Source: Hormiphora californensis
Taxonomy: Eukaryota; Animalia; Ctenophora
Reading direction: 5' to 3'
Assembly (NCBI GenBank): GCA_020137815.1
Contig: CM035361.1
Span: 5,642,001-5,706,000, forward strand
DNA length: 64,000 bases
Part shown: piece by piece, positions 12,401 to 48,552 of the stretch
Position numbering within the stretch: the stretch's first letter is position 1
Layout of the letters: each line of letters begins with the position of its first letter
The notes under the pieces: model-generated
The model's input: only the letters and a program-made list of their open reading frames with translations
What the model was told of the DNA's origin: nothing
The model's database searches: none
Program-made: the position numbers and the translations under genes

Positions 12401-15400
12401 ATCATACCAAAAAGAAGAGAAACTAGTACCAAAAACCAATCAAATTGGTTTGGATGACCTGGGGCCCAAAGGCGTCGGGATGCAAAATGTTGGTAGGATA
12501 AAACATTACTTTTGTAGGAAAATCTAAAAATGCGTCAAGAAAAACACTATTGTAGCTGGTGAAGGTCGCATCCCGACGCCTTTGGGCCCCGGGTCATCCA
12601 AACCAATTTGATTGGTTTTTGGTACTAGTAACTAACTACACGTCTCTCACCCAGGTACATTGTTTATATCTCCTGAACTCTTCAGTTCGTCAGCAGTCCG
12701 TGGTAGTCTGGTAGAGGTTGTCAAATTGTAATGTCAGTCAGTATAATATTGTCAAAATGTAATGAGGAATTAAGAAATTATTGGCCCCCTTTCTCTGTTG
12801 TATTATATATGTGTGTGCAGGTAAAATATTGGGTACAGTGCAGTACACAACGCCCAAATAAAACAATTTGAAATGACGTCAAAAAATGACGACACAAAAT
12901 GACGTCACAAAGTGGTAATGACGTCACAAAATGACGTCACACTACGTACGATTGGAGGATGGTATGCTGCCTGTGACTTGATGTTTTGTTTCGCATTAAT
13001 TTGGGAGTCTGACTTCGTCTCTTTTCCGCTAGATTACTTCGCTTCCTGTAGAGAGATATTTAGTTAATCAATTAGTGTGAAACTATTTATCACATCTGAC
13101 CACACGTCACCATAAATATTCATGATTTTTTCCCCGCCCGGTGAATGCCGAAGGCATTCACCCGGATGCCTTTTGTAAAAAGGCATAGGGGTTTAGAATT
13201 CGACAATTTTATTTTACATACTAGTGAAGTGTCACGCTTTTTTTGTAACGTAACCCGCTCAGTTGCGAGGGACAACGATGTTGCTCCTTCATCAAATACT
13301 TCAATGGCACGTTTTCAGGAAATGTGAGCCGTGCAATGTGGCGCACAATTTAGTGATACTAAAACACAATGATTTGTTCTATACGGTTTGACTGATTCAT
13401 AGATGATCGGAAATGCCTGTCCCGCCTTCCCATTAGATGGTTATGAAAATAAAGGTTGGCGGGGAAACATAGCATTATGAAACATAATGCAGTTATTCTT
13501 GTTATGCTGTTTTATTTTAATCAAAGTTTAATGTTGGAAGTAATAATAAAAGAATGATAAAATCCTTACTTTTCCATTTCCTCAAAGTGGTTCAGTATCA
13601 GGGTGTCCAATATCGGTCCATCATCATCACCACCTATCCTGGGAGCCTTGGAGAACATCGTATAACCATCCTTTCCCCGGGATATGTACTCCTTTACAGC
13701 TACCTTGTATACCTAGAGAGAGATATTGTACATTGTACATTGTGTACCTAGAGAGAAATACATTGTATGTTGTACATTGTATACCTAGAGAGAAATACAT
13801 TGTAATGTACATTGTATACCTACAGAAATACATTGTATACATTGTATGTTGTACATTGTACATACATTCTTTGTATACACAGCCATGTTTGGGGTTTATA
13901 AATTGAGATTATAGATGTGTGTAACTGGGTTCAAAACTAATCTATATATTAGCTGAGGGATCAGATAATAAAACAAAGAGACATTAACATGGAAAACACA
14001 ATTGAGAAGACACAATTGTCACAAACACACAAGTGCTAACCTTATCCATATCAATTGGTGAACCTAGTACTCGAACTGTATCTGTTAGGACTCTACTTCC
14101 AGGGTCCCTTGCAGGATCAAACCTGTCGGGGGAGAATTAGGTTGATATATGAAGTGAGGGGGGTGGGGGGTAGTGGGTACTGGTGGGGGAGAATTAGGTT
14201 AATATTTATTGGGGTTATGATCAGCTGTTTGTTAGATTTTAGGATTGATAACTGATCAAGGACCGGGGTGTGTTGAGTATCTCTCTTCACTTCTCCCACT
14301 TTGCCAGTTTGCCGGTCGGTTATAGCTGTCATGGGTTCAAGGTGGCATAATGAATAAGGGGGTCCATGATACCCCCTTGAATTCCATTATATAACTGATA
14401 AGGGGCTTTGGGGACATTATTGTGTGTAAATGGTTATTATATTCTATTTCATGATGGTAAGAGCTGTCTCTCTCCCTCTCTCTCCCTCTCCCCTCTCCTA
14501 CAAAGAATGGAAAATGTAGAAGAGAGTTAACGAGTCTCTCTATCCCCCCATTGTCCTCTATTAATAACTATTCATCTGGTGCAAGTATATAGCTCACAAT
14601 CACCTTGGAGAGCTAGGCTATATAATAACCCTTATTATAGAGAGCAAAAACTCAACTCGCTTTATTATATTTTCAGTCCTTGCCATTCTTGTCTTTAGAT
14701 AATTCTTTTGCTCGTGATCAATATAATACCAACCTGATTCCGGATTTGTGGTTGTTTTATTGAGGATGACACAGGTTGTGGTACAATTACTGTTGGTGGC
14801 TGTTATTCTGGTTGCACTACCCCACTACGCAGCTGCCACAGGTAATATATATTGAATATTGGAATAATATTGGGGTTTAGGGGGATCGCGATCTGCTTCC
14901 TCCCCCCCCCCCCCCACCCCCTCCACTCTATCATAATACTAGTAGTAGTAACTAAACCAATACAGACCAATGGTTGGTGACAAGAAAATAAATGGTCGAT
15001 TTAAAATCAACCCAATTCTTCCATCCCCCTCCACTCTATCATAATTGATAATACTAGTACATAGTAGTAACTAAACCAATTATACAGACCAATGGTCGAT
15101 TTAAAATCAACCCAATTATATTCCATTCAGTCTGGATACCAGTTACGTTAAATGCAGAGATACCTTGGGACCTAGAAAATGTCCCAATCGAATTCAAAAC
15201 CGACTCAACACTTGGCAGTAAGGATTACGTTAGGTTTGCTTTTGTGAAGATAAAACACGATGGCACCAGCGAATGGCTGACAGCGTTGTGGATTAGATTT
15301 TATGGAAATGTAATAGGAATATCCATCGGGGCTTGTTCCAACTCTAACAAGAATATTGACATGACTCAGTGCCAGGGCAATGAACGGGTCTGGAGGGTCC

Positions 15401-18400
15401 AAAAAGGAGAGGACACTTTAGAGACGTTCTGTAATGGAGTGTCTATCTTCAACTACCAGATTAGTGAGGGGACAGGGAATTGTAGGGAGAAGCTGCAGGG
15501 AGATATAGTAGATGCGATAAAATTTGCTACATATAGCGAAGCAGATGGTGGTCCTGCAGCAGACTTCTATAGAGGATTAAGTATACGTAAGTAAATCATA
15601 ATAACAGAAACATATTGGTAGGTTACAGCGCTTTTAATTGGGGACAGTTACTTGGGCCATATAATATGATAGTTGCCTTGATCGACCCTCTTTCCATGCA
15701 GGGAGGGTTAGAACATATTATACAGTCGGACCCCGATTTACCGAAACTGGGGAATCGGGGTCCGACTGTATATTAATATAATGGAATGTGCAGAGGGTTA
15801 GAACATGTACATATATGCAATGGATATATGTTGAAAAAGATGGGCATCTTTTTCAATGTAAATTCCTGTTGTGTGTCACGTGACTGGTTATCAGCCAATC
15901 AGGGACCAGTATTTCCTGATTCGGTCGGTTCCTGTTGTGTGGTAAGCTACAGGCGTTATAACAAGAGTTCACTAGATCGTAAGTTGCCACAAAGCTGTAC
16001 AGGCTATCTGACGGCCATTCTCAGACCTCAGTGCGGGTCCGGTAATGCTGTTTTTGACGATGATGGTGTGTATTATAATAATCGGGTGGGGGGGGGGGCA
16101 AAAAATAATCACAATGAAAAGAATTCCCATAAAAACAGGTTAACAACTTACGTGAACGAGACGCCTGAGACCTGTGGGAATCTCCCTTCCAATTCTGGGT
16201 ATTTTGATACACCGTTCTCTAGTGCTCCTATAACTTGGGATCCTGAAGAGGAGGGGGGATTTGTCAAGTGAATCCTGAGGAGTTGAGAATTGTCAGGCAC
16301 TGACTTAGCGGTGTGGAGAGGACAGTCTTGTATGAGAGGGGGATGCGGGTGGTAAGGAGAAGCTGGTGTGTTTATCTTGGTCTTATATATCCGTTCTTTT
16401 AGTGCTAACCTCAAAGTGTAGTATTGGTCACGTGAGTCGTTAGTTTAATTATTTAGTTATCTAAATAATCAATAAGTTAACTAACCTGTGCATTCTAGAA
16501 GTAACAACTCATCGAAAATTGGGAGGATTTTCTTAAGATCCTTCATACGGAGCTCCCCTGCTGGAAACAAATGGTCTGCTCTTAACGTACCGCTGAAAAC
16601 AGGTAATAAAATAATTAGTGATATTATATTAGTTAATAGTACAATAATTAATAGTTGTTAGTGCAGTCATTAGTCACAGAGTAATTAAAGTGAATATAAC
16701 GGGATAATTAAGGGATAATGAACGGGAAAGGGTTTCGCCCTCCAAGTCCATACCTATTCAGTATACTGTTATACTCCATACCTGTTCAGTAGTGCCACAT
16801 CAGCCTTCATTGCGACCCTCATGACATCCGTTATGAAGTTACCTGCAGGTGAAATGTATTAGACATGTTAACTCATGTTAACACATGTTAACACATGTTA
16901 ACTCATGTTAACTCATGGACTAAGTAGCATGTTAACTCATGTTAACTCTGGAAGAAACAGGTGATTTTATATAGTTATTCAAAACTAATTAATCGTACTT
17001 TTACTTTAGTTAATATTTCCTTATCTCTCCTCTTTACAATTACCTGTATTGCACTCCCGTGTTCTAATGTGTGCAAATCGTGTTTCCAAGTCAACTGAAA
17101 ACACTCCAACCACTTTCTCCAGTTCTCCTGACATTTTACCTGCCATGGTTAGGGGGTAATTAGTTAATTAAATGAGTAATTAATTAAGTAGTTAAATAGT
17201 TAAAGAAACTTAATCGAGTAATAAAGTAATCAAGTGTTATCATTCTGATCTCACCTCCCCCTTACCATTGTATTCGTTGACAACTTCAATCATTTTGGGG
17301 CAACAGGGAAGATCAGATGTTACCTCTAGCTTTTCTACTACCGTCTTTATCTGAAGAGGTTAACAACTTTGAAAACTGTGTCCGTTATTGAACCGTTTTT
17401 TGACTTTTGAGTTCACATTACAGCTAACCCGGTCGCTTGTAGTGGGAAAACGGTAATGGAGAACGGAGATACGGTAAGAAGTACGGACACTGGACAGCGG
17501 GTATAATATTCCAATCTATACATACCGGGTGGTCGGGAGATATCCTAACTGTTACTTTTGAGAATTCTCTGAAATCTGTTCCACTCTTGACAATTGTCCT
17601 GTGATTCCTCTGAAAATGGGGGAGAATTTAACTTTTAGTCAACAAAAGTTCACTGTTCATGGACACACAAATGCATAATGTTTTCGGGGAAATTGTCTGT
17701 CTAATATTGTATTTGTACTTTGTCAGTAGTTGTTGTAACTGTATTGTCAATAGAAAAAGGGTCTCGTCCTTTAAGTGTGAAAAAGTCAACCTTTCCATCT
17801 GCATCCAGCTGTATTTCCATCTGTCAGTAAACAAGTGTCAGTTATTGTCAGTCAGTCAGACTCTGAATTATAATAATCTCAAAATCTCTGACTCAGAGAT
17901 TTTGAGATTATTATAATTCAATGTTTGTTGTTCAAAAGCTACAATACAATTGCATTGTTTCAACTGATTTTGAACTATAACCTCCCTATCCCTACCTCTT
18001 CAACTCCATAGTTATGATCGTGCCCTCCCAAAACTAAATCCACGTGCTTTGCACACACTGCCAGTCGTCTATCATTATTCCACCTCATGTGAGTCAGTGC
18101 TATCACTATATCACATCCCTTTTCCTCCTTTAACATTGCTCCTGAGAGTGTTAGGGGTGATAACAAGAAGATATCATATTGCTAGTATAACAGTAAATCG
18201 TGGATAGCGGTTTTCTTGCAACTGCAGGAGCGCTTGTCAGCGCTAATGTCTCCTCTCATCCGCGCGCGCGTGTTCAAAGCTCTAGGCGCGGTCGTCAGGT
18301 GAGTGTTGTCAAAAAAGTAGGTGTAAAAGAGGCACGCCGCGCGTTCCATACAGTCGTTAGATTTCTAATCTTGCACAGTGCACTTTTGCAGAAATCTTGC

Positions 18401-21400
18401 AGTCAAAATAAATCGTCTTTTTATAAGGGGTGTCCCGAAAAAACATGCCCAATATAAAGAGGAAAGAAACACCCTTTACTAACCGTAGCTATCAGCTGAT
18501 TCGAGGTAGTCAGTGTAAATAATTTCATCCATTTCGATAGTAGATAGAGTTTCCATCCAACCCAATTCAACTAAACCAAGCAACCCTATCTGGAAATATG
18601 AGATTAGTTGTCAGACACTGACTGTTATACACCACGCAACCTCGGCCCGGTGCGAAGAGGAAGGTCTTATATGAGACAAGATATTAGGAATTGAGTAGAA
18701 CCATATCTGGAAATATGAGATTTAGAAAAGAGTTGAATTCAGATACAGACATGGTGTACACTATGAAGGGGGAAACGAACCATAAAGACTGGGATAGTCA
18801 GACTGCCAAGAATTGAAAAGTTTGGTAATTGGCCGGTATAATTACGAGGTATTAGCCCATTCTGGTAGTACAATTGACAAATCAGATACCACGCTGCATT
18901 CTAGCGGTATCATACATAGATCGACCACACCTCCCTTGATGTTCTAACCGAGTGAGGGAGGGTCGACCACACCTCCCGTGCAATCTTGTTTACATGATCG
19001 TATTTTGTCAAACTAATGAAATCTTATGGGGCGAATGCAGATGTAATGAAAACAATAAACAACAACTTCAAGTACTATACATATAAGGAGGAAGGTTAAC
19101 TGTCTGGTGACGTCATCATTTCCAAGGAACTATAACTGTGATGTCACTAATAATTTACTGGAGAATTCACCGCAACATTCAATGCCCCCCCCCCCCCCTT
19201 TTCCGTGATACAGCTCTAATATAAACAAGTTTGCAAACTGCAACTGCAGGGCGTGCAGCTGCAACTGATGTGGGAAAAATAAGAGAGAAGTAGAAAGATA
19301 GGGGTCAATCATGTGGCTGCAGAGTTTAACATCTGTCAAACCGTGGACACAGGTACATGTTATGTAATACAGGGAGTGATAAATGTTAGCACGGGGAGGT
19401 CTCAAAAAACAAGAAAGATAGATAGAGAGAGAGGGATAGAAATTAGATAGAGATAATTGAATTTATTACCCGTATTCCACAGTGGTCAATAACAAGATAT
19501 TCCTGTCCGTTTCCAAGTGGTTCTCCCGTTTCCCTGGGATTGATGTTACATGTTAGAGGGATTACATATATGTAATCTAACATCCCTCTAACATGTAATA
19601 ATGTATATTACATGTTGGAATGTTACATGTGGATACATCATACAGGATAAAAAGTCTAAGCTCCAAGCCTCCTTTACAAATTGTGTCGTCGCGGCTCGAA
19701 GTGAGAGAGGATCGAGCAGTAAAAGTTAAAAAAGAGGGACGTGGTGGATCGAACGACCACAGGTAGTCTTCAGACCTATAACAGCATATAATATTGTATC
19801 AGCTTTAAAAGACTCGATACACACATAGTTGTAGTAACAAGCATTGTTTTACACTTTTACAGTGTATGTGTACAGGTGTGTATATTTGTTCAAGTTTGTC
19901 TGCGTGTGTGTGTATGTGTAAAGTAGTACAAAGGTGTGCAACTATGCACTCGTTTATACATCAACATGTGTGATGAGTACACAATTCACACTCCTTATTT
20001 TTTGTACTTGGCCATTGATGACCGACAGTATACGACTAGAGTTTAAAGTGTGTAGTTGTACTTTAAGCAATACTAAAAGTAATACTTTTTAACACTTTTT
20101 GTCACACAAACGAGAACACACAAACACACGCACACACACAATTTCACTCAGTCTAACTCAATAAACACACATACTGCGACACGCCAAGGCACATTCTCTG
20201 CTTCAGCGTTTGTAAAAATACACATGTTTTACAAAACACATGTTTTACAAAACACATGAACTATTTGTGTAGCTGTGAAGTGCTTTGAGGATTGTAAATT
20301 TCTAACCTTTTAATGTATTTTCTAGGTTGAATAATTGTGGGAGGAATTCAGAAGAGAGAGAGGTAGAAAGAGATGGAGAGCGCCAAAGCGGAATAAGAAG
20401 TAGTTTCAATAACAATAATCTGTAAAATCTTAACACACGTCTGCAGACATACTTATCGATAACATTAGTCATCAGCCAGGGAAAGTTGGTAGCACCTTTC
20501 AGTTCTAATAAATCATCTAAACCGAAATCTGAAAAGAACGAGATGTGTATTTTTTAAAAGTTTTGGGGGGGGGGCGGAGAGGGTCCACTGGACTACTTTA
20601 GTAAGGCAGGTCCAGCCCTTAGTCCAGTTTAGACCGTCGGCCAAATTCAGGGTACCGTTTGACTTTTTTAGGACTCGACCCCCCCCCCCCCACCGGCCCC
20701 TATAGTTTTTTAGAAGTACATTGAAGGAGGCGTGAACTTTGAATTTAGTAACTTGTTACTACTAGTTTGGCTAATACGTCAATCGTTAGACAATGCCAGT
20801 GACATCCAACCGTTATTTCTCCGGTTGGCTGGCACTACCTAGAATAACGACTTTATGGTATAAACGGGTTTTATATTCAACTAATTATCAGTCCGGATAG
20901 CACGGTTGACTGTCAAAACAATAACAAGAGCTTGTCGATAATCGTCACTGATTTAACAACTTTCGGCAATATTCTATTGGTGTTAGCCAGATTTTCTCTC
21001 CCAAAAAGTACAGAATCTCTAGCACACTGAACCAGGAACCGACCGAATAAGGAAGTACTGGCCCCTGATTGGCTGATAACCAGTCACGTGACCTAAATAA
21101 CGAGTTCTGATTGGTTGTTGCCACAAGACCCTTACCGAAATCATGGTTGCCATACACAGCAGCGGATATATTCAGAGCGTTTAGGACTGGAACCATTTGA
21201 ATACCCTTGAACAGCGTGCTCACTGAGAGAGGGGGATGAGGAGTGAGATTTAGCTTTACAGGTGCTCTCATTGTTTTTGTCTTTTTCAACAACAAAAAAC
21301 TCAACTAAAAATCACAGTATTAATTCTACAATAAAAAACGCGTCTATCATTTTTCTCAGCCGGAACTCGGAAGGAGAAATCAAAACTTATTCACTAATCA

Positions 21401-22098
21401 TGTTTATCATACTTACTAGATGAAGGGTTGAATGCGTCCCCACTGAATAAAACTATGAGCTCCGGGTCAGCTGCTACCATATCCCTAATTTTCTGGACAA
21501 ATCTTGCTGCCCCTCCGATCGGTTCCTGACCCTCAGTTCCATCCTGCAAAATAAGGGATAACTTGGATAAAGAGCCATCCTGCAAAATAAGGGAGGTATA
21601 TAACTTGGATAAAGAGCCATCCTGCAAAATAAGGGAGGGATATAACTTGGATAAAGAGCCATCCTGCAAAATAAGGGAGGGATATAACTTGGATAAAGAG
21701 CCATCCTGCAAGGGAGGGATATAACTTGGATACAGAGCCATCCTGCAAAATAAGGGAGGGGGATAACTTGGATACAGAGCCATCTAACTTAACAGGGGGC
21801 GGTTGGAAAGTGGAAACTCCCGCCTGGAACCTGATAGTGATACCATGTTGCGTGACATGAATCTCTCTATCTATAGAGCTCTCAATTCTCTTGCAATGCA
21901 CACTTTGGGATTTTATGACGTTATGTATGTGATACATATGTGTATAAAAGAAATGTGCAAGCCTAATCAATGCACACGCATTAATTGACTGTTTATGTAC
22001 GTTCCATAGTTTTGGACGGTGTCCAAATTAAAAGTGATACACAGGTGCAGCTGTACAGGAAGAGGGGAGAGTGAGAGAGAGAAAGAGAAAAAGAGAGA

Positions 22099-22196
<98 letters not shown>

Positions 22197-27034: not shown

Positions 27035-27111
<77 letters not shown>

Positions 27112-34100: not shown

Positions 34101-36250
34101 TTTTTTGATGGAAAGGAAACTAGTTTTGGAGGGGTATGCCATGTGTCATTTGGAGATCCTTACTCACCTGAATTACGAGAGGTAACTACATTGCCATTAT
34201 ACGTATGATATGTGATATGAATTAAGTCACACTGCTGCAATAAACTCGGGTTTTTTGAAGTTGTCACAAAATTCGACGTTTGGGGTGACAACTTCAAAAA
34301 ATCCGACTTAAGTGATGCTAACCCTATATAGTTGCAGGAATTTTCCTCCAATCTCGAAGCTCACACCGTGTACATTTCACTTTGCGTGAACTGATTTGTT
34401 TCACAGTTATCGCTTACACGACACACGTACCGTTTCTTCTATCTGCTCGCACTTTCCCCTCACTTCTCACACTATATGTATGAACATCGTGGCAGCTGGA
34501 TCTCTGTAATTGTAGTGAGAAATAGAAAATAGAAAATGAGAGATCTAAGTAATTTCTCATCCTTGAAAAGCGGCCTACATTTTGGGAAGCATGGGCCTCT
34601 CTTTTTGCTCACTAGTTTGTGTAGGGAAGACCATCACATGCAGATCATAACAAAAAGACGAGCATTATATCATGTGAAAGAGAAAAGAGGTGTGTGATTT
34701 ATGTGTATAATCATTAGCTCAAACATCCCAATCCAACCAGATGAGTCTTCAGTTAACTAATTGATCTCCTAATTAACTAATTATACCCGTGCTGCCTAGG
34801 TGTTGATAGATGCAGCATCCAAGATGGATTTTACCATTCACTCCAGTGGAACAGCAGTGGCAGTTGAGGGTCCTCGATTCTCCTCTAGAGCCGAGGTAAT
34901 GAAATCAAAATTGAAAATCTCCTAACTTGACATCCTAACCATATTGAGAAAAAGATACCAAGGTAGACCTCTTCCTAAAACCCCTTCCCTCTCTTAATTA
35001 GAGCAAGATCTAAAACCCCTTCCCTCTCTTTAGACCTCTTCCTAAAACCCCTTCCCTCTCTTTAGACCTCTTCCTAAAACCCCTTCCCTCTCTTTAGACC
35101 TCTTCCTAAATCCCCTTCCCTCTCTTTAGAGCAAGATCTAAATCCCCCTCCCTCTCTTTAGACCTCTTCCTAAAACCCCTTCCCTCTCTTTAGACCTCTT
35201 CCTAAAACCCCCTCCCTCTCTTTAGACCTCTACCTAAAACCCCTTCCCTCTCTTTAGACCTCTTCCTAAATCCCCCTCCCTCTCTTTAGACCTCTTCCTA
35301 AAACCCCTTCCCTCTCTTTAGACCTCTTCCTAAAACCCCTTCCCTCTCTTTAGACCTCTTCCTAAATCCCCTTCCCTCTCTTTAGAGCAAGATCTAAATC
35401 CCCCTCCCTCTCTTTAGACCTCTTCCTAAAACCCCTTCCTCTCTTTAGAGCAAGATCTAAATCCCCCTCCCTCTCTTTAATAGAGCAAGATGTACCAGTC
35501 ATGGGGATGTGATGTGGTCGGGATGACTCAGGTCCCGGAAGCCCAATTAGCACGGGAACTACACATCCCGTTTCTGGGGGTTGCCATGGTGACGGATTAT
35601 GATTGTTGGAGGGAGGGCGAGGAGAGTGTCACACAGGAATCTGTCTGTAGGGTAAGTTGTGAACCGCACATTTTCGATATCCCCGATATTCCCATTACTC
35701 CTTCTAGAAGAAGCTTTTTCGATTATTTTAGGCTTACGATGTTTGTCTGTTTGTACTTTGTATAGATCCGGACCATAAATGTCTTATCATATTAGGGCTT
35801 AGGCAAACTAGACGAGACACTATTTACCCTGATGTTTAGTAACAAGGTTAAAATTTCACTCCGGACATATGTTTTTTGCAAAGCACCTTGTGTGATATTA
35901 CCCGAAACCATGTAAACATGGTGTAACTGCAACGTTCTTGTTGTTGTCAGTTAGAAGTCATGTTACCCGTGTTAGACAGTGCGGGCAACATACCGATCAT
36001 GAATCAACTAAAAATCAACTACCAATCAATTACCAATCAATCACCAATCAGTTACCAATCAACTACCAAACAATTACCAATCAATTAACAATCAACTACC
36101 AGTTAATTACCAATCATCTCCCTCCTGCAGATGTTATCGGGAAACAGAGATAAGATGATCAGGTATATAAGGGAGGTTATACCCCTTCTAAAGGATCGCT
36201 TCACACCACCCGCCACTAAGAAAGCTCCAGGAGAGGGGGACTTGTTATAA
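31148..36250 (+). CDS. MTAP: S-methyl-5'-thioadenosine phosphorylase, 8 exons
   Basis: MKIGIIGGTGL, LLGRHGRDH..PTNVNYRAN, VGSLREDYKPGDF, VEGPRFSSRAES, VVGMTQVPEAQLARE, MVTDYDCWRE. Approximate exons: 31148-31218, 31380-31459, 31615-31725, 33735-33817, 34068-34181, 34800-34895, 35484-35651, 36131-36250. Confidence 0.95.
32760..33380 (-). mobile_element. 5'-truncated CR1-type LINE remnant (ORF2 C-terminus plus 3' UTR) in MTAP intron 3
   Basis: LEDVQRSFTRLI..LTYEERLKELELTTLLERRMRGDLIEAYKII..FFNRCANYWNKLP..SVNAFKARL is the typical CR1 ORF2 C-terminal motif series. Confidence 0.88.
33499..33670. mobile_element. CAGTCGGACCCC MITE (TA TSD), inserted into an acceptor-repeat array
   Basis: TIRs and TA flanks present. 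A near-identical inverted copy lies at 40984-41152. Confidence 0.9.
34965..35483 (+). repeat. ~30-bp pyrimidine-rich tandem repeat filling MTAP intron 6
   Basis: ctaaaaccccttccctctctttagacctcttc repeated ~16-17 times. Four units read tag-agcaagat, like the true acceptor and exon start. Confidence 0.9.
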
Positions 36251-37150: not shown

Positions 37151-40100
37151 TTACAAAGAAATTACAAAAAGCAGGGGTAATAAAAACAATAAGTTATGGA
37201 GGTGATAAAGGCGACCAGCGCCCGATAGTGTCCTTGTCTTCTGGTGCAGGGACGGTCCAATACCTGCAGGAAAATAGTTTTATGAAGCAGCAAATTTCAC
37301 GCGTCGTTCTGGACGAGATCGATATATCAAGTCCCCACGACTGTTTTTCCTTTGGTAACAAAGTTACCCCCCTCCCTTGTCAGCGCGGTGGGGTAATTTC
37401 GTAACCAAGATGCTGCAATTACCTTGTGTGTTGTGTGGTGTAATGGTGATTCTAAACTGTGTATCAGGGGCAATGTTTGCTATGACAATAAAGTTGTCAG
37501 TGATATTTGTTCTAACAAATTCCTCTTTTCCCTGCTCATCCGTACACCGTACCTGCAAAAACAATTTGTGATTCTTCAACACGGATCAGATCTTTTTGGG
37601 TGACAGATCTTAGATCTTAGAAGCTAAAATCAAATGCATTTCTTGTTCGGGTGAACGCGGGGTGAACCCCACATGCATTTCATACGGAAAAGGGCGTATT
37701 TTTGTTCAGAATGGACGACCTTTACTAGGGTGCATGACTATATGTGTCAACTTACGTTATACCAAATGTATTTGAATTGTCAACTTACGTTATACCAAAT
37801 GTATTTGAATTGTCAACTTACGTTATACCAAATGTATTTGAATTGTCAACTTACGTTATACCAAATGTATTTGAATTGTCAACTTACGTTATACCAAATG
37901 TATTTGAATTGTCAACTTACGTTATACCAAATGTATTTGAATTGTCAACTTACGTTATACCAAATGTATTTGAATTGTCAACTTACGTTATACCAAATGT
38001 ATTTGAATTGTCAACTTACGTTATACCAAATGTATTTGAATTGTCAACTTACGTTATACCAAATGTATTTGAATTGTCAACTTACGTTATACCAAATGTA
38101 TTTGAATTGTCAACTTACGTTACACCAAATGTATTTGAATTGTCAACTTACGTTATACCAAATGTATTTGAATTGTCAACTTACGTTATACCAAATGTAT
38201 TTGAATTGTCAACTTACGTTATACCAAATGTATTTGAATTGTCCATAGGGAGCGCTCCATCCAAATCTAATATTCCTGACCCCAGCTATGACATATCTAG
38301 CACGGGGCAGATGACTGGGACGATCCTCTAGTGTGGTGGCAGACACTGAGGTCTTTGGACCACATCCTACCTCATTACACCCTTGGACCTGAAATATATA
38401 ATGGATCATACTTGATATGAATTACAGATCACGGACCTCGATTAACCGGGATTCGCGGGGAAAGTACTGTATGAACTCGTTTTTTGTCTAGGCTATTTTT
38501 TCTCTATCCCTCCGCTAAAGTGTGGATCATACTTGATATGAAAATTCGCGGGGAAGGGGTTTTGACCAGTAAATCGGGGCCGCCCGGTACATCGGGGTCC
38601 GACTGTATGAGCTCATTTTTTGTTTAGGCTATTTTTTCTTTATCCCTCCGCGGGGTATTATATATGTCTGCTACTACACTCCCAGTAGAACATAAAATGT
38701 GCATTACACAGGGGTTCACACCTATAAAGTGGTTACTGCTCTTGTAGTGTAAAAACATGCACTAATCAAATATAACGGCACTGGAAAACTTAGTAGGCGT
38801 TTCCGGCTGTAAATCAGCTCGACAACATGTCGACAAGTTGCCTTTTTGTAAAGCTGCAAGGTATATCGAGAGACCCAACAAAGTGGAATTAATAAACGCG
38901 GACTCGCTGATAAATTTTCGTAATTTCGTATCCGCGTTTATTAATTCCTCCTAAGGTACTTGACATATCGACAGAATAGTTGACTTACCGCTGCCAGAGC
39001 TTTGGCCTTCACTCATTCTCATTTCTTTCAAATAAGCACAAGAACTATGTTAGAGCATTAGTCTGACAGACTCACCGAGAGAAGGTACTTGGTATAAGGT
39101 TGGAGGCGGGTTAGGGTAGAAAACAGGGCTGATTCGTACACTCTCTCCTCTTTAAAATCAAATGTGTAGGTCAGCTTGTAGTAGGTTATCTTTCCATTCT
39201 GTTTACTGCACGTGTGGAATAAGGGGTTAACAGTACGATTAGATATTTACTTTCGTTAATAAATGTAACGTTCTTTCTCTTTTCATTATCTCACTTTTCG
39301 ACCCTTAGGGATTTTCTTCAAATCAAACCTACCTTTTCTCAAGCTGATTCCAGGTGCACACTATTGCCGTGCTGTTTAGTTGGTGTTCACATTGGAAGAC
39401 AGTGGGCACTGCAGAGGGAAGTTCTTCTAGTGTAGTGAAACTGATCCGCTGACCAACAACATCCCCTTGAGAGAATACTGAAGAAAGTTGGGGTCAAACC
39501 GCGGGGACGCGTAAGGGTCATGATGATTGTTACTAACATTTGTTAGTCGTCAAAAACTAGACTCTTAGATGTCAAACGAACGTTCGTTTAACTAAAAGTT
39601 TTTTTTTCACAAATTATAGAACCATCATGTGCCTAAAGACTCTCAGCTCCGTAGTTTACTTTCTTCTAAGTAACTGCACCTGTTGCATAATAGAGGGTCC
39701 CGGGGCTGAGTTTCTGAATCGTTAAACTGGTTTTAAACTCACTGAACTTTAACGCGTCTTCTTTCCATAATCTGCAAGGGAGGTTTTAATTTGGTACTGG
39801 ATTTAGTTATCTTGGCACAAGGTTCGATCTTTCAAGTTTTTGTCGAAATTCGACAAGGTTTTTCATGCATGACATGATAAGTTTCGTTTGGAAAGTTTTG
39901 AAATTGATTTTAGTTTACCTATTTACCAGTCGAATCTCATAAATTAGTGCGTTATCATCTGTGTTGGGTTTCTGCCAATTTAATCTTACTGACCTGCGGG
40001 AATATGAGTCAAACAAGTTTGAAAAATAGAAGCATTTAATTAATTAATCATAATCTCCAAACTCAAAGTGAGAAAAAATGGGTCTACAGGGCAAAAAGTT

Positions 40101-43100
40101 AGAACTCGAATTAGAATTCTTCAAAATTCTCTCAATATATCTTACGTTGAGCTGAGGACAGTATGATTGAGAGGTAAGCAGGTTGATAGAGGTTCTATCA
40201 CTTCTACCTTAACGGGTTCACTAACCATACTACCATCAGCACTCCGGGCTTTTATCTAGACGGGGGGATGCTTTTATCTAGTGGGGGGTTAACAAGATAG
40301 ACAACGATATAATCATACTATTATTAAAGCAAATAGGGAAATGATGGGTGATGGTTTTTTTACCAAATATGGCACAAAATTCCTGGAAATGGCCTTTTGC
40401 ACGTGTTGTCCCTAGAGGGACCCTGGCAACCTGCCAGCTTGAGCCTTAAACTGCACGTGCATCCTTGATTCATCTCTCTGCCGGTTGTGTGATTGATCGC
40501 TTGCTCGATTTGATCTGTTCACCCCCTGTTCACCACGTTTCGTGAACATGACTACTCAACTTCAACACAATCGCCAGACGCGCTGACGCCTATAGACTAC
40601 GTGATAGAATCCTACAAAAGAGGTGATTATTATTCAAAAAATGTTGTCAACACACGTAATAACAAAGTATCAATGGCACTAATAAGAAATGGCAGTAATA
40701 CGTGAAAGTATTTTTGCAAAACGTGCTCCTTCATAAAATACTTCAGGGCCTGGCAAAAGAGGACCCGTGGTTTTTCTGTCGAAAGAATCGCTGTGGTTAA
40801 TTTACCTGATAAATTTACTGATTTAAAAAATTTCAAATGACACTACACTATTTGCATAGTTTACTGTATGACCATTGACCATCCCCGACATTCGCCCGTA
40901 GGGCGAGCGGGCTTACTAGTGGTACTAAATCAAATAAATTGACAGTGGGGGGTTGCTTTTATCTAGAGGGGGGATGCTGTATACAGTCGGACCCCGATTT
41001 AGGGGCCCCCGATTTAGTGGCACCCCGATTTAGGGACAGGATTTTTTTCCCCCGATATAGGAAATTAACCTTATTTGACCCCGATTTAGTGGACACCCCG
41101 ATTTAGTGGACAAGAGCCTTTCCCCCGAGGGTGTCCCTAAATCGGGGTCCGATAATATGTTTCTAGAACAATAGGGGAATATCAGGGGAATATACTAATA
41201 TCTGAAGGGGAAGTTGCTTTTATCTAAAGAGGGCGAGATGCTTTTTTCTAGTCCGGTCCAATGCACACATACCTGATAGTATCCCGTATCAGTTGCAGTA
41301 GCACAGACTATCTTGATAACGCCAATGTTGGTATTTGGGTCCCAGCTGCATTCTGTGTGCCAGCCCTTGCTTTTTGTTATCGGAACAGCGTTTATGAAAC
41401 ATTTCACCTGATAAAGTGGGTTGGTGAGGTGTTTATTAGGAGTGGCAGCTGCCATAAGAATACAATTGCGCCATAACGGTTACCACATAGAGGGGAAGTG
41501 GTACCTTTCGCCCTTCCCCCATGCTTTTGCATTTTGAGTGATGCAAATCTTCTCGACCACAAACTGTCAGTACGATCAGTCATCAGGGGCAATATTATTA
41601 CACACCTCTAAAAGTTGAAGAGGAGTAGGAAGACCGTTTTCGTGTCCCTTTACTACTTGAAATGCAACGGAAAACGTTGAGCCTCCTCTAACGATCTGAT
41701 AAGAGACAGTGAACAGTTTAGTTGTTTGTTTGCGTCTTTGTTTCTTTGCTAAAGCCATTTGTTTGACCCCGCGGGTGCAGTTTACAAGTACAAAAAGACT
41801 GAAGACACTCACGTCAGCCGTTGGTACTCCTTTGTTTATATGAGGTGGTTCCACTAGCGCCAGAATGTAGCTTGCCTTAGCTGATATCAAGCCTAAACTG
41901 AAACAGGGATGGTTAATCAGTTAATTAAGTAATTAACTTATTAATTAATTAATGAGAGCACATGGGTACCTGTCAATAGTTTCACAATAAATGATGCTCT
42001 CTAATTGGACGTCTGTGTACGAATAGTTGAACACCTCCCCATAACAAATGTTTTCACTGTATCTTTTAAATCTGCAAAGAGTTGCTGATAATAGACCCTG
42101 GATGGAAAATCCAGGCTTGGAATGATAATTGTATTTAATTGATTAATTAACTAATTAATTGAGCTATTAATTAACTAATTGATTGATATTGTTACCTGGG
42201 ACTTGAGTTCCCATAGATAATTCTGGAACCTTGAAGCCCAGCTTTGGCATTGTAATCAGCGTAAACTTCTATATTCAGATCTCTACAAGAAAGGGAAGGG
42301 TATATGTTTTTAGTATCGCGTATATATCGAATCCTGTTTTTAGTTGGGAGATTGCTAGAACCCAAGAGTCATTGCAATCCATCTGCAGAATGGCCGGTAC
42401 CACTATTTTGATTCTGTTTTTCGTACTTGGGAGAGCGGTGCTCCCTCTTCAATTATGATTTATGAATATGACAATATGACATACAGTTGTACTTACTGAT
42501 TAGGTTTTATATACATGTATAGCGCTGATTCAAGTTCACATGATTCTCCATTCTTCAACCAGCACCTGATTGATGTTTGTGAATGATTTGTAAAGTATAC
42601 CAGAGGAATGGTTATAATTATGGGTGGGTATGCAAATATGGTTCAAACCGATTGGAAAATGTTTATTTAATTCTTGGTCCATTAATTGAACTTTATTGTA
42701 ATCTTGTAGCTTGTAACTTACCTTACTCCATGTTTATGGTTTAGGAAATAATACTTTACATCCGTTTCTGTGAAATCATCTGGGTCAGGCTCGATTTCAT
42801 CTTCAATTTTTAGCTCAATCTCGTTACCTGACGGAGAGATAGTTACTTTAACTAGGAGAGAGAAGGAGAGATTATTGCTTTAACTAGGAGAGATACGGAG
42901 AGATTGCTGCTTTAACTAGGAGAGAGACGGAGAGATTACTTACTCTGGACACTGCTACCACCACATTCCTCTGTGTCGGCACACCTCATCCCGCAGGCGT
43001 TAGTTGCGTGACATGAGTACATCCCCACGTCCCTGAAAGATGAATCTTGTGTGCAAGAGTCAATCAGAGGCCTGTATTATGAAATAAAGGCCTCTGATTA

Positions 43101-43200
43101 GTTCGCGTTAGCTGTGCTCAAGTCAGGCCACAAACTCACGGGTCGGAGAAGTTTGTGATAAAAAGATGGCCCAACTTGGTGATGGTGTATTTTCCCCCGT
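37151..43200 (-). CDS. GPI-anchored Ig + fibronectin type III cell-surface protein, copy A (5' exons garbled at ~43200-44200)
   Basis: In-phase exons encode Ig motifs (DVGMYSCHATN, ATATDTGYYQ) and three FN3 units (SVRLNWQKP..IQKLSPGTLY; VCTWNQL..NGKITYYKL..LQPYTKYLLSVQGCNEVGCGP; IRFGWSAP..IAPDTQFRITITPHNTQGIGP). The C-terminus is TLSGAGRLYHLHNLLFLLPLLFVISL*, with the stop at 37151-37153. Confidence 0.85.
37745..38243 (-). repeat. 30-bp tandem repeat (~16.5 copies), each containing the exon end and 5' splice donor
   Basis: Minus-strand unit is caattcaaatacatttggtataac|gtaagttga. The first unit is the real exon end (...QFKYIWYN). Confidence 0.92.
40984..41152. mobile_element. CAGTCGGACCCC MITE
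   Basis: Inverted near-identical copy of 33499-33670; right TIR slightly eroded. Confidence 0.88.
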
Positions 43201-46200
43201 AAAAAATCAAACCGTTCAAGGGGTTTTTTTTCCCTGCTCATGGGGTTAAAATCGGGGGGGGGGTAACTCCAGGGTTTGTGAAAAAAACTGTTTTTCGTTG
43301 TAGGTAAAAAAACACCAAAAAAATGACAAATCAAAGTTTAAAAATTTGATAAACAAGGTCGAACCCAAAATAGGGCGGACCCCCCAGGGGTCTTTTAACC
43401 CCCCCCGAAGGGGTTTTTAAAAAGCCCAAATAGAAACCCGAAAAAAAGGTAAAGGGAAAATTTTAAAACACATTTTTTCCCCCATGTTCACAAAAACTTT
43501 TTTGGGCTGAAAAAAAAGGTCACCCTTCCCCCCACCATTTTTAATTTTGCCCCCATAGGGCCCCCCCCCCCCCCCAAAAATTTTTTTTTATTTTAGGCCT
43601 TTTTTTATTTTTTTTATTTTCCGGAGATTTGGGTAATTTAGAACCCCAAAAAAAACCCCTTTTTTTATGCAAAAGACCCCAAACCGGGTGGGATTTGAAC
43701 CCTTTTTTTTGTTTAAAAATACCAAGTTTTCCCCGGGGGGGAGTGGGTTGGGAATAAAGGGGAAAATTGGGGGGGTTTGGGGGGGGGGATGGGGGGGGCA
43801 TAAAAGGGGGCCTGGGGGGCTATTGACCATTTTTTTGTAAAAAAATCTGCGGGGGGTTTAAAACCGAAGTTAAAAAAATTTACTTTAATAACCCCAAAGG
43901 GGCCCCGTATATGGGGGGTTTTTTTAAAAATGAAAAAAAGGTAAATGAACAAAATCAAGGGGGGTTTTTATTTTAAATTTGTTTTTTGGGGTTTTTAATT
44001 AGTAAAAGTTTTTTAAACTGGGGTTATTTTAAGATAATTAATCGGTTTTCCCTAAAACCCAATTTAAGGTCGGAATTTGAGGGGAATAAGAAATTTTGTT
44101 GGGCCCGGGATTTGAGAAAATCTCTGTTTTCCCCCCCCCTTTTTGGAATTATTTAGAAATTAAAATTCTTAAACAATATCACTAATCCCGGGGGATAACT
44201 AAAGATGGGTTGGATGGAAAATTGATGGGACGGAGCCCGAGAATTGGCTAAATTTTGTCTAATATAATGCCCAGGTGGGTAAAGGCCCCCTTCAGGTTTT
44301 TAATTTTTCAAACTTTTTAGGGGCCAAAAAATCCAAATATTTTTCAACATTGGGATTTTTTTTTTCAATTTGGGAGGCCCCCAAATTTGGGGGAATTGGT
44401 AGAAAAATTTGGGGAGTTTATTCATTTTTTTTTCCCACCATTTCAGGTTTTTGGGGTTTGGGTTTAAAAAACCTTCCCTTTTTTTTGTTTCCTTTAAAAA
44501 CACCCACCAGAATGTAGCTGGGCCTTTTTTTATGACCCAAAAGCCGGAAAAAATCTACATAGAAAACAAACTAACGTTATGGGTTTAAAAACCCTTTTTA
44601 ACCCCCCCCCAAAACACTAATTTATGAAAATTTTCCCCCCACCCCCCCCCCCCCCCCCCTCCCCCCTTTTTAAAATGAAACAAAGGTTTTTTTTCTTATG
44701 TTTTTCAAAAAATTAAAAAAAACGGGGGAAAACTGAGGAAGGTTGGGAAAAAAAAACCCCGGCCCCTTTTTGCTTTTTTGCTCCCCCGGGGGAAAATTTT
44801 TTTAAACACTTTCCGGTCTTTTTGGACGAAGTATGTCCCCCCCCCAAATTTTTCCCCAAGAAGTTCCCCCCCCCCCTTTACGGTGTTACCCCCTTGGAAC
44901 AACCCCGGAACCTATTAGGTGCTTTGATAAAATACCAAATAGAATAAGAAAAATAATCAAGTCCCCACACGTTTTTTTGGGTATTTTTTAACAAATCGTA
45001 ATTTTTTGGGGTTTTTTGGGGGTATGGTATTCAAATTTACGGGGGGGTTTTTTTGACAAAAATTGTCCCGTGTTTTTTTAACCCCTTTTTTGATCCTCAC
45101 CGAAAAAAAACCAAAAAAAAAAGGGCTTCAAAATCCAGAAAAAAACTTTTGGGGAAAATCTTTAAAAAAATAAAAATTTTTTTTTGGGGGGGGCCGATTT
45201 CTACGGAAGATTTTTTTGACTTAAATTAGAATATCCGGGGATGGGTTTAACCTTACGATAAAAAATTAGAATTGTCACACGTTAAAAAATTATTTAAAAG
45301 TCCCCTTTAAAATTATTTAATTTCCTTAGTTTAAAAGTTTTTAATTTCAATTGTATACATTTAATTTCAAAAACGATCAAAAAATTTAAATTTTCCTTTG
45401 TATACCAAAATTAAATTTAATTGCCTGTTTAAAATTTATTTAACCCTTTTTTAAAAGTTTTTAAGAATTTTTTTATCCAAAAATTTTTTGAAAATTTAAA
45501 AAGTTTAAAATTTTTGAATTGTCAACTTCGTTTAAAACCAAAATTTTTATTGCAAATTCAAAAAAATGTTTTTTTTTCAATTTTCTTAACCCAAAAATTT
45601 TTTGTTTATACTTTTCCAAATGGATTTTTAATTTTCAATTTTTGTTTAAAAAAATTTAAGCAAAATTCGAAAACCCATTAAATTTAATTTTCCTTTTTAA
45701 AACCAATTTTAATTTCATTATTATAAAAATGTATTTATTGTAATTAAATTTACCAAATGATTTTAATTTTAACTTACTTAAACCAAAGATTTGAATTGAA
45801 CACTTTCCTTATTTTAAAAAATTTAATTTCAATTTCCCCAAAAAAATTAATTTTACTTTTCTTTTTTTTACCAAATTATTTAAAGTAAATTAGGGTTTCC
45901 CAAAAATTTGAAGTCAAATTACGTTTTTTATTTAATTTTATTAGTTTAAAATTTTGAATTTTTCCCTCTTATAAACCAAAGGGTTTTTTTTCAAAATTTT
46001 CTTTTTTCCAAATTTTAAAACCTTCTTTTCCAAAAATTTTAATTTGAAAGGAACCTCCCCCCGTCCAAGTTGGAATATATTTTAGTTTTTCGAACCGGCA
46101 AACTAAATATTTTCAAAAATTTTACTATTTTCTGACTAACCCAAATTATCTAATACCAAAATAAATTTAAACCCTTTTAAAAAAGAAAAAATATGGGAAA

Positions 46201-46255
46201 AAAGGAAAGGTAGTTGTCCAAAAAAAAATTTTTATTCGGAGAACTCGATTCAATT
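43190..46255. other. Homopolymer-inflated garbled segment; degraded echo of neighbouring Ig-FN3 gene sequence (probable low-quality consensus)
   Basis: Abrupt switch to runs of A/T/G/C. There are residual matches to ~47400-48600, to ~36900-37740, and to the 30-bp repeat (ttgaattgtcaactt, tataccaaa at 45270-46030). Confidence 0.75.
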
Positions 46256-46375
46256 GATCGGTAAATGTGTATCTTCGTTAGTGATAATTGTATTTAATTG
46301 ATTAACTAATTAATTGTGTTATTAATTAACTAATTGATTGATTGTTACCTTGGACTTGATATCGTGACTGTTACC

Positions 46376-48552
46376 TTGGACTTGAGTTCCCATAGATAAT
46401 TCTGGAACCTTGAAGCCCAGCTTTGGCATTGTAATCAACGTAAACTTCTATATTCAGGTCTCTACAAGAAAGAGAAGGGTATTATATTAGCACGATCTGA
46501 TTTGATTCGTGATTCAAATTCTGTTTTTCGTACTTGGGAGAGTGTTTCTCCCTAGGGTCATCAGAAGGGGAATTCACTTACTGTTTATAACATGCATGGT
46601 TTCACTTACTGTTTGGGTTTCATATACATGTATAAAGTTGAGAAATAGTTGCTGATTTGTTCACATGACTCTCCATTGAGCAGCCAACACCTGTTAGATA
46701 TTTGTGTATGAATTGTTAAAGCAATATACCAGAGGAAAAAGTATAGTTAACTATAGTTCTGCTGAATCTACATGGTTCAAACCGTGTTCTGGCCCATTAA
46801 TTGAACTTGTAACTTGTTAACTTACCTTACTCCATGTTTATGGTTAAGGAAATAATACTTCACATCCGTTTCAGTGAAATCATCTGGGTCAGGCTCAATT
46901 TCATCTTCAATCTTTAGCTCAATCTCGTTACCTGACGGAGAGATAGTTACTTTAACTAGGAGAGAGAAGAAGAGATTATTGCTTTAACTAGGAGAGAGAC
47001 GGAGAGATTGTTAATTTAACTAGGAGAGAGATGGAGAGATTGTTGCTTTAACTAGGAAAGAGACGGAGAGATTGTTACTTTAACTAGGAAAGAGACGGAG
47101 AGATTACTTACTCTGGACGCTGCTGCCACCACATTCCTCTGTGTCGGCACACCTCATCCCACAGGCGTTCGTTGCGTGACATGAGTACATCCCCACGTCC
47201 CTGAAAGATGAATCTTGTGTGCATGAGCGAATCAGAGGCCGGAATTATGAAATAAAGGCCTCTGATTGGCTCGATCGTGTTAGCTGTGAGTGACCTAAGA
47301 AAGTATGTATCATCTAAGGCTCTCGAGTCAGGCCACAAACTCACGGGTCGGAGAAGTTTGTGATAAAAAGATGGCCCAACTTGGTGATGGTGTACTTTCC
47401 CCCGTCAACTACATCACTGAAATAATATAAATTACAAGTGTGAATTAGTTTGCAAACTCTGCTACTTTGTTGCATGTATTTGAGACATTGGTGACATAGA
47501 CACCTGGCGCGACCACATTTGAGACATGACATTTGAGACATGCCCGGCAGGGGGAATGCAGATCAGGATTCTCCCATGGTTTAAATGAAACAAAAACACG
47601 TCACAAAAAGCTAGATCACACATGTATTTGACTCACACCACAATCCCGTCGATTCTTCTACTCCAAGTAATAGTTGGACGAGGTATTCCCGCCACGGGAC
47701 ATGCTATTACACCCGTCCTTCCTCTTTTGAAGGTTTTGGGCAGCGGCCTAAATAGGTAATCCTGGCGAGGGAGAGTAGTGAAATATTGAAAGGTGAACCT
47801 TCCACACCATCAGGAGGGTTGACAGTAGGATTAGCTTAGGGATATAGGATCTATCAACACAGTATGTGCGTTCTGATCTATAACTTTTTAATTCTCGTTT
47901 AATTCTGTACATTAGTTTAGCTAGGGGGACGGATAAATTTCACCGAGCATTCCGGTAAATCAGCTAATAGAGCTATAAAAACCAACCTCTTCTTCTTTGA
48001 TGCAAAGATGAGCCGCTGTAAGAGCCAGGCTATGAGGTATTATGAAGCCCATTTCCTTTTCTGTTACACTCACTACCATCATGTAACTTCCCTCGTGAAG
48101 GGACGTGGACTTCTGGACGAATAACCTGTGGGAATTATGGGCGGGGTGGGTGGGGATGGGGCGGGCGGCGGGCGGGCGGGATGGAGGCGGGTGGGGATGG
48201 GGGTGTTGCGCATGGTAGTTTGGTAAAAACCTACGTGTCGGTGTGGCTGACTATCTGACTGAAGTTAAACATGATTGACATGTTACAGGTACCCGTTAAA
48301 CAGTGGTCCACGTATAATGGGTAGTTTCTGAAGGCTGAAAATGGAATCAATTGTAAACTGGAGCTAATTACTATCGGGGGCTGATTTTTAAACGAAATTT
48401 AATAAAATTGGGTGCTAAGTTCGAAGATAGCTATTACAATTACCTGGATTATTTTCGAAGAAATTAAATTCGATGGGTTTCCCCGGATAGAATACGAACT
48501 GGTGAAGAATGACTGAGGGAATTAGGAGCGAGGAAAGTAATAACAGAATCAT
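46376..48552 (-). CDS. Ig-domain cell-surface protein, copy B: exons 1-9 (signal peptide plus Ig domain); downstream exons missing or garbled
   Basis: MILLLLSSLLIPSVIL signal peptide, then in-phase exons AFRNYPLYVDHC.., ..IACPVAGIPRPTITWSR.., ..LGHLFITNFSDPDVGMYSCHATNACG... Exons 5-9 are paralogous or allelic to 42196-43200. Confidence 0.8.

What the first reader, a model, noticed from the sequence alone, without database searches (positions are those of the whole stretch)
13712..46615. Window-wide pattern: introns stuffed with tandem copies of their own splice sites
Seen in all five main genes. Duplicated acceptors, usually with the first exon bases: 6490-6657 (GPCR); 13712-13830, 18585-18722 and 21539-21785 (nucleotidase); 28022-28160 (Hsp90); 33451-33745 and 34985-35492 (MTAP); 40247-40290, 40954-40978 and 41215-41251 (Ig gene). 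Duplicated donors: 16748-16792, 37745-38243, 46343-46387 and 46575-46614. Several copies read AG|GT (cag|gtacgt, tag|gtatac), the form of recursive splice sites. Inference: a mutational process that expands exon-intron junctions, plus a splicing rule that picks the exon-proximal copy. This could be a route to intron growth, intron gain or isoform tuning. I am not aware of it as a described system.
Basis: partly seen in the sequence, partly recalled or inferred. Interest (0 to 1): 0.8.

Follow-up and report, generated by a model that had tools for sequence, protein, structure and literature searches.

The report
Splice-junction "mirage" repeats in comb-jelly introns
In five genes of what is likely a comb jelly, about one splice site in eight has a stray copy of itself in the neighbouring intron, a repeat type already known from lancelets and human genes that is likely harmless because the copy next to the exon is used, although here the duplications also pile up at intron 3' ends for a reason still unknown.

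Summary
All 12 listed sites are there and two more were found, 14 in all; an anchored test flags 12 of 110 modelled splice sites. The claim that it is undescribed is wrong: these are amphioxus-type 'mirages' (PMC3087553, PMC3902484), like the human F7 VNTR and CBS 844ins68. This scan has noted them in at least 7 other genomes. Local duplications are enriched at intron 3' ends (15 of 24 events against 4.4 expected), but about half of those lack the AG. Donors are not enriched, and acceptor-spanning enrichment fades under stricter nulls. The AG|GT 'recursive' look follows from exon starts (3 of 9 against 16 of 42). 36 of 40 decoys would break the protein. RNA contigs for Hsp90 and MTAP fit exon-proximal use. 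Two donor copies differ between likely alleles, inside a falsely duplicated assembly block. Best reading: microhomology-seeded duplication filtered by selection. New here: a likely ctenophore case, and a 3'-end bias worth a genome-wide test.

The parts
6481..6657 (+). GPCR intron 1: two copies of an ~87-nt unit ending at the acceptor; decoy TAG with a 2-nt indel, no exon bases
21539..21784 (-). 5'-nucleotidase intron 1: 42-nt array, 5 decoy acceptors, 4 in frame and stop-free (+36, +78, +120, +162 nt); 5-nt flanking repeat GATGG equals the exon's first five bases
18582..18722 (-). nucleotidase intron 5: 24-nt acceptor copy 117 nt upstream, unrelated filler between; use would add a stop
13701..13863 (-). 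nucleotidase intron 14: 35-37-nt array, 3 decoy acceptors reading AG|GT because the exon starts with GT
16747..16791 (-). nucleotidase intron 11: donor copy 28 nt downstream; use would shift the frame
28022..28151 (-). Hsp90 intron 7: acceptor plus 9 exon bases copied 116 nt upstream; two RNA contigs join at the proximal site
33451..33748 (+). MTAP intron 3: 26-nt units carrying ~13 exon bases, 4 decoys, array split by a short inverted-repeat element at ~33497-33670
33816..33848 (+).
34964..35491 (+). MTAP intron 6: 32-nt x16 array; 4 units carry 8 exon bases, the others only the pyrimidine tract and TAG
   Evidence: RNA piece from 35482
37745..38243 (-). Ig/FN3 gene intron 13: 33-nt x15 array, 14 decoy donors, each adding an in-frame stop; 4-nt flanking repeat
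40248..41252 (-). Ig/FN3 gene intron 7: one acceptor family at 40248-40290, 40954-40980 and 41205-41252, separated by insertions
46343..46387 (-). donor copy in the second (likely allelic) copy; absent at the matching donor near 42196
46573..46614 (-). donor copy with filler in the second copy; absent at the matching donor near 42497
25144..25280 (-). Hsp90 intron 11: AG-free 12/22-nt array of a CTAAC (branch-like) motif, ending 2 nt before the intron end
24634..24713 (-). Hsp90 intron 13: AG-free ~28-nt x3 copies in the branch zone
24309..24380 (-). Hsp90 intron 14: AG-free 41-nt duplication ending 21 nt before the intron end
29285..29319 (-). Hsp90 intron 4: 14-nt duplication ending 23 nt before the intron end
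24008..24116 (-). Hsp90 intron 15: 13-nt branch-zone match 96 nt apart (weak; near chance level)
16863..16948 (-). nucleotidase intron 10: 10-nt array ending 20 nt before the intron end; does not include the acceptor
36002..36116 (+). MTAP intron 7: 11-nt x10 array ending 14 nt before the intron end
38402..38651 (-). Ig/FN3 intron 12: ~130-nt duplication ending 13 nt before the intron end
42831..42938 (-). Ig/FN3 intron 1: 32-nt array filling the intron (3.4 copies; 5.4 at 46934-47105); the unit also matches many unrelated contigs, so it is likely a dispersed repeat
43140..46250 (.). noisy, homopolymer-rich block between the two copies; likely assembly artefact

Best explanation
These are 'mirage'-type repeats: short local duplications, likely seeded by slippage or end-joining between 4-5-base repeats, that overlap an intron end and likely persist because the spliceosome keeps using the copy next to the exon. 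Shown: the copies, the flanking short repeats at several arrays, the loss of reading frame if decoys were used, and presence/absence differences between two copies of one block. Inferred: (1) a duplication arises; (2) some grow by unequal exchange into arrays of up to 16 units; (3) alleles in which the decoy wins are removed by selection, so the survivors look like 'decoys plus a proximal rule'; (4) the surplus at intron 3' ends likely comes from this filter and not from a splice-site copying device: the working branch point, pyrimidine tract and AG protect one copy from decay, and young insertions dilute intron interiors. Step 4 is the weakest and does not fully account for the numbers.
For: Units of 8-87 nt at both boundary types match the mirage description. 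Flanking repeats of 4-5 nt at the 33-nt, 42-nt and 32-nt arrays and the 46375 donor, and of 7 nt at two arrays away from junctions. Tandem arrays are as dense outside the modelled genes (1.11 per kb) as in introns (1.14 per kb), so the genome duplicates short stretches everywhere. 36 of 40 decoys would frameshift or stop. RNA contigs join Hsp90 28028 to 28547, one contig without mismatch over the 142-nt exon, and an MTAP RNA piece begins at the proximal acceptor. Donors are not enriched; acceptor-spanning enrichment is lost with 2x persistence and in short introns. AG-bearing decoys occur in 1 of 31 introns up to 300 nt and 8 of 20 longer ones, as a filter would predict (post hoc). Human F7 and CBS show the same proximal use.
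Against: The 3'-zone excess is strong: 18 of 29, 15 of 24 and 14 of 17 events against 5.1, 4.4 and 3.4 expected (P 1e-7 to 2e-9). It survives 2x persistence alone (P about 1e-4 to 1e-6), capping intron length alone (P 2e-4 to 1e-3), and short introns alone (8 of 12 against 3.7, P=0.008). Short-repeat seeds are hardly denser at 3' ends in 26 event-free introns (0.37 against 0.36, 0.14 against 0.12, 0.059 against 0.043), so base composition does not explain it. Introns with and without 3'-zone events do not differ in C content, pyrimidines or branch motif. The length split weakens when pre-duplication lengths are used (P=0.35 at two of three cut-offs). RNA evidence covers 2 of 14 sites, from metatranscriptome contigs of other individuals that may lack the decoys.
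Confidence: 0.6

Rival explanations
1. Intron 3' ends are a mutational hotspot for short duplications. Something tied to transcription or splicing at the branch point and acceptor (polymerase pausing, exposed DNA, a G-rich template strand) would raise the local rate of breaks or slips, and selection then only removes alleles in which the decoy is used.
For: 3'-only against 5'-only events are 16:4, 14:3 and 13:1 (P 0.012, 0.013, 0.002). Seed density does not explain it.
Against: One window, chosen for this pattern. C-runs are no richer in affected introns. Both duplications that differ between the two likely alleles are at donors, not acceptors.
Confidence: 0.17
2. Extra branch-point and pyrimidine-tract copies are kept by selection because they would strengthen or back up 3' splice-site recognition, most of all in heavily transcribed genes.
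For: Five of 15 Hsp90 introns carry junction-free duplications in the branch zone, and the intron 11 array repeats a CTAAC motif (9 YTAAY in the last 130 nt against a mean of 1.4 in introns without a 3'-zone event). YTAAC peaks 15-30 nt from the 3' end.
Against: Four of the nine junction-free 3' events carry at most one such motif. Affected introns do not have weaker acceptors. AG-bearing decoys add risk, not benefit.
Confidence: 0.1
3. There is no real positional bias: short introns, a high background of repeats and the choice of this window produce the pattern.
For: Array density is the same inside and outside the modelled genes. Donor-spanning counts match expectation. Acceptor-spanning counts match it in short introns.
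Against: The 3'-zone excess holds at three thresholds, in short introns alone, and in the symmetric 3' against 5' test that needs no length model.
Confidence: 0.1
4. The decoys are functional: recursive (AG|GT) splice points or alternative acceptors that tune isoforms.
For: The Hsp90 and nucleotidase intron 14 decoys read AG|GT; recursive use would restore the frame. Four decoys in nucleotidase intron 1 are in frame and stop-free.
Against: 21 of 55 exons start with GT, and duplicated acceptors are not enriched for it. The two introns are 328 and 518 nt, short for recursive splicing (recalled: it is typical of very long introns). The listed RNA joints show only the proximal Hsp90 site (174 joints were not shown, and contigs drop rare forms).
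Confidence: 0.03

Closest known systems
Amphioxus 'mirage' minisatellites (Adh3, globins BflGb6 and BflGb9, troponin C, PGBD5). Seen: passages of PMC3087553 and PMC3902484; the original Adh3 paper was not read.
   Same: Tandem copies of intron-exon boundaries, both 5' and 3'; units of 10-160 nt; many but not all carry AG/GT; regular splicing undisturbed; copy number differs between haplotypes; proposed there as a route to intron gain; mechanism stated as unclear.
   Different: Likely ctenophore host; several cases are two copies with filler or split by later insertions; an equally large class of duplications stops just short of the AG; a 3'-end excess is quantified here, which the passages read do not report.
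Human F7 intron 7 37-bp VNTR. Seen: abstract and Discussion of PMC1557585.
   Same: The first unit spans the donor; identical pseudo-donors follow; only the exon-proximal one is used. Same layout as the 33-nt x15 array at 37745-38243.
   Different: There the pseudo-sites were shown to be functional but outcompeted; here not tested.
Human CBS 844ins68. Seen: passages of PMC7490669 and PMC1802585.
   Same: Duplication of an intron's last 52 and an exon's first 16 bases; the downstream acceptor is chosen; polymorphic.
   Different: A single human allele, with G runs between the sites steering the choice; no such element was tested here.
[quoted passage not shown] Seen: passages of PMC3443670.
   Same: Local tandem duplication around splice-like signals.
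   Different: That makes a new intron from exon sequence; all copies here sit in existing introns and no new intron is shown.

Membership tests
mirage minisatellite | repeat unit spans an intron-exon boundary and is copied next to it | tested here: met
   12 of 110 sites by anchored test plus the 46375 donor. Three are spaced 57-117 nt apart, not head-to-tail, and the GPCR copy has no exon bases: these four are looser members.
mirage minisatellite | unit length in the minisatellite range (10-160 nt reported) | tested here: met
   8-87 nt; one 8-nt unit is below the reported range.
mirage minisatellite | both donor and acceptor boundaries affected | tested here: met
   9 acceptor and 5 donor families.
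mirage minisatellite | authentic site stays next to the exon and normal mRNA is made | tested here: inconclusive
   Frames are open only with proximal sites for 36 of 40 decoys. RNA contigs fit proximal use at 2 of 14 sites, from other individuals.
mirage minisatellite | length instability between haplotypes | tested here: met
   Two donor copies present in one copy of the block and absent in the other; pieces of both copies occur in one run with no differences. That the copies are alleles is inferred, and the direction (gain or loss) is unknown.
mirage minisatellite | somatic instability (reported for Adh3) | not testable with these tools
   needs tissue-level long reads
recursive splice site | AG|GT juxtaposition beyond chance | tested here: not met
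   3 of 9 against 16 of 42, P=1.0
recursive splice site | intermediate junction or lariat reads at the site | not testable with these tools
   only assembled contigs were available
intron gain by tandem genomic duplication | duplicated exon segment spliced out as a new intron | tested here: not met
   All copies lie inside introns whose other end is unrelated sequence; intron positions were not compared with orthologues.

The most novel reading that the evidence does not exclude
The last ~50 bases of introns in this animal are a true duplication hotspot, 3-4 times above the rest of the intron, driven by splicing-coupled DNA damage or by selection for spare branch points. Mirages would then be the visible, AG-bearing half of a general process that grows introns from their 3' ends, with short introns tolerating only AG-free copies.
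Probability: 0.22. Interest if true: 0.62.

Novelty: new member of a known kind. Interest (0 to 1): 0.3.

Why it matters
As it stands this extends a little-studied repeat type to a likely ctenophore and warns annotators that decoy junctions are common in such genomes. The paper that describes mirages in globins calls their mechanism unclear (PMC3087553). The measurable lead here is the 3'-end bias that includes AG-free copies. If it holds genome-wide and in new mutations, it would link splicing to where DNA mutates and give a route for directional intron growth. The arrays are also natural tests of how an early-branching animal picks one acceptor among identical ones only 22-42 nt apart.

Tried and rejected
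No whole genome is held, so no genome-wide test was possible. A scan of metagenome contigs with the element's terminal repeat gave 4 contigs of 1.1-1.5 kb, too short to annotate. The nested + strand exon had no homologue among 98 candidates (weak evidence). MTAP hits gave no close animal orthologue. Pfam named 4 of 11 single exons (Hsp90, phosphorylase, 7tm_1, and a metallophosphoesterase just under its cut-off); five Ig/FN3 exons and two nucleotidase exons matched nothing, so the 'Ig/FN3, contactin-like' label rests on my reading of motifs (recalled) and on open frames. Organism B contigs align to exons and a few flanking bases and show no decoy at 85% identity; that is not evidence of absence. 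RNA run X16 gave no exon cover of the Ig/FN3 gene. A 4-nt insertion in the 8-nt donor repeat appears in one contig in each of two runs, but among many repeat-derived contigs, so I do not count it. Rejected: microhomology density as the cause of the 3' bias; weak acceptors or C-richness as predictors; recursive splicing; reverse transcription of the lariat tail, because several units include sequence upstream of the branch-like motif. Rows dropped before the hand count: of 42 clusters, 3 GA-rich, 2 internal to the inverted-repeat element and 1 second-copy repeat of an array were removed, and 7 pieces were merged into 3 events, leaving 32. One search repeated the count automatically on 51 introns, leaving out the 4 introns of the second copy.
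Full report
1. Setting. The window holds five intron-bearing genes. The best relatives of the GPCR's long exon are EukProt proteins labelled 'sb/346...' at 33-67% identity; I recall that label as a Pleurobrachia gene set, so the animal is likely a ctenophore. I built gene models by hand and checked them by translation: GPCR, 5'-nucleotidase, Hsp90, MTAP and an Ig/FN3 gene all read through without internal stops. Pfam confirms Hsp90, phosphorylase and 7tm_1 exons and gives a sub-threshold metallophosphoesterase match; 7 of 11 exons matched nothing. The models give 55 introns, median 202 nt.

2. The observation. Scoring each splice site against other AG or GT positions in its own intron, with all other introns as background, flags 12 of 110 sites. 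The GPCR acceptor and the donor at 46375 are also duplicated, making 9 acceptor and 5 donor families. Chance gives about 1.3 matches per resampled set of introns against 42 clusters seen. A second sample carries three of the decoys with no differences. Three cases are spaced copies with filler, and one family is split by later insertions.

3. An assembly caveat that became evidence. 43140-46250 has 49 homopolymer runs per kb against 6-7 on either side, and includes a 69% identical echo of the 33-nt array. One contig of run X5 joins 42123 to 46234 across it. So 42120-43190 and 46280-47420 are likely two alleles placed in tandem; paralogy is not excluded, and one exon differs by a 12-nt indel. 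Run X2 holds pieces of both with no differences. Both donor duplications are in one copy only, and the 32-nt array has 3.4 against 5.4 units. A ctenophore genome paper reports 3.2% heterozygosity with many intronic indels (PMC8527503, passages), which fits.

4. Is it more than background? Tandem arrays are equally dense in introns and outside the modelled genes (25 in 21.9 kb, 32 in 28.8 kb). I placed each duplication at random in its own intron with the added bases removed. Hand count, 32 events: acceptor-spanning 9 against 2.7 (P about 4e-4), donor-spanning 4 against 2.7 (P=0.27), 3' zone (spanning, or ending within 25 nt) 18 against 5.6. Automatic count on 51 introns at three thresholds: acceptor-spanning 7 of 29, 6 of 24, 4 of 17 (P 0.006, 0.013, 0.089); donor-spanning 3, 2, 1 (P 0.46-0.87); 3' zone 18, 15, 14 against 5.1, 4.4, 3.4; 3'-only against 5'-only 16:4, 14:3, 13:1. 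If copies at an intron end stay detectable twice as long, acceptor-spanning enrichment goes (P 0.10-0.36) but the 3'-zone excess stays (P 1e-4 or less). In short introns alone the 3' zone holds 8 of 12 against 3.7 (P=0.008) and acceptor-spanning is 2 against 1.8. Capping intron length at 200 or 150 nt and doubling persistence together give P=0.027 and 0.087. About half of the 3'-zone events stop short of the AG. The window was chosen for this pattern, which inflates every junction count.

5. How they form. The 33-nt, 42-nt and 32-nt arrays and the 46375 donor have 4-5-nt direct repeats at their ends, and two arrays away from junctions have 7-nt ones. This is the footprint expected of slippage or microhomology-mediated joining (established knowledge, recalled). 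In the 42-nt array the 'copied exon bases' are that microhomology. In MTAP introns 3 and 6 and Ig/FN3 intron 7, 8-13 exon bases were really copied. Seed repeats are hardly denser at 3' ends of 26 event-free introns, and affected introns do not differ in composition or branch motif (18 against 33 introns). The cause of the 3' bias is therefore not shown.

6. Which copy is used. 36 of 40 decoys give a frameshift or stop; the four exceptions are in nucleotidase intron 1. In a metatranscriptome, two contigs join Hsp90 28028 to 28547 at the exon-proximal acceptor, one without mismatch over the exon and one from a more distant organism. A low-depth MTAP piece starts at 35482, at the proximal acceptor. 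These RNAs come from other individuals, 174 joints were not shown, and contigs drop rare forms, so decoy use is not excluded. AG-bearing decoys sit in 1 of 31 introns up to 300 nt and 8 of 20 longer ones, while AG-free 3' copies sit in 6 and 3 (P=0.05; P=0.35 with pre-duplication lengths at the same cut-off). This is a post hoc hint that short introns tolerate decoy AGs poorly. The AG|GT form is explained by 21 of 55 exons starting with GT.

7. What is known. [quoted passage not shown] PMC3902484 (one passage) adds PGBD5 and troponin C. PMC1557585 (abstract and Discussion) shows that only the most upstream of the F7 VNTR donors is used. CBS 844ins68 is the acceptor analogue (passages of PMC7490669 and PMC1802585). 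The scan's notes list 65 similar findings in at least 7 genomes, and none held the word ctenophore; they are unchecked and not counted as support. Paper searches for a ctenophore case and for a 3'-end enrichment listed nothing on point; some searches gave the precedents. Only listings were seen for the other hits. Subscription journals are largely missing from the library, and no supplements were read.

8. Verdict. A real, multi-gene case of a known repeat type in a likely new phylum. The best reading is background microhomology-seeded duplication filtered by selection (0.6). The residual 3'-end excess, including AG-free branch-zone copies, is the one point that known accounts read here do not cover; it leaves about 0.22 for a true hotspot or selection for spare signals. 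Novelty: new member of a known kind. Interest 0.3.

Noticed in passing
window 43140-46250: Noisy homopolymer-rich block with almost no contig cover, between two likely alleles of the Ig/FN3 gene; likely a false duplication in the assembly.
   Followed up: yes
window 42497-42565 against 46610-46690: One Ig/FN3 exon differs between the two copies by a 12-nt indel and several amino acids while neighbouring exons are nearly identical; organism B matches the 46.6-kb version. Possible old balanced polymorphism, or paralogy.
   Followed up: partly
window 14767-15587 (+), inside nucleotidase intron 13: Likely nested gene on the opposite strand, with a signal-peptide-like start and no homologue found. 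Its own intron has a ~110-nt duplication ending 15 nt before its acceptor.
   Followed up: partly
window 33497-33670, 40981-41155, 7618-7797, 51537-51712: High-copy ~175-nt inverted-repeat element, with a shorter form near 15720; one copy sits inside the MTAP decoy array, so that array is older than the insertion.
   Followed up: partly
window 42831-42938 and 46934-47105: The 32-nt unit that fills this intron matches many unrelated contigs in three DNA runs, so it is likely a dispersed repeat family.
   Followed up: partly
window 32715-33393: A reverse-transcriptase-like fragment (my reading of the translation) in MTAP intron 3 is skipped by a contig of run X5: a likely insertion polymorphism.
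   Followed up: no
window 50764-50941: 41-nt x4 array outside the modelled genes whose minus strand reads like a donor (AG|GTAAC); no exon was assigned.
   Followed up: no
window 55522-57406; 49181-50288; 63254-63865: Large arrays: 40 nt x47, 455 nt x2.4 (100% identical) and 163 nt x3.8, not tied to a junction in my models.
   Followed up: no
window 37151-37263 (-): The Ig/FN3 gene ends in a hydrophobic tail, as in GPI-anchored contactin-like proteins (label recalled, not from a call).
   Followed up: no
window 9800-10540, 25980-26980, 12400-12630: Long near-perfect inverted-repeat elements; the second makes up most of Hsp90 intron 10.
   Followed up: no
window 59284-62425: Open frames resembling a LINE-type reverse transcriptase (minus strand) and zinc-finger/endonuclease pieces (plus strand); my reading.
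   Followed up: no
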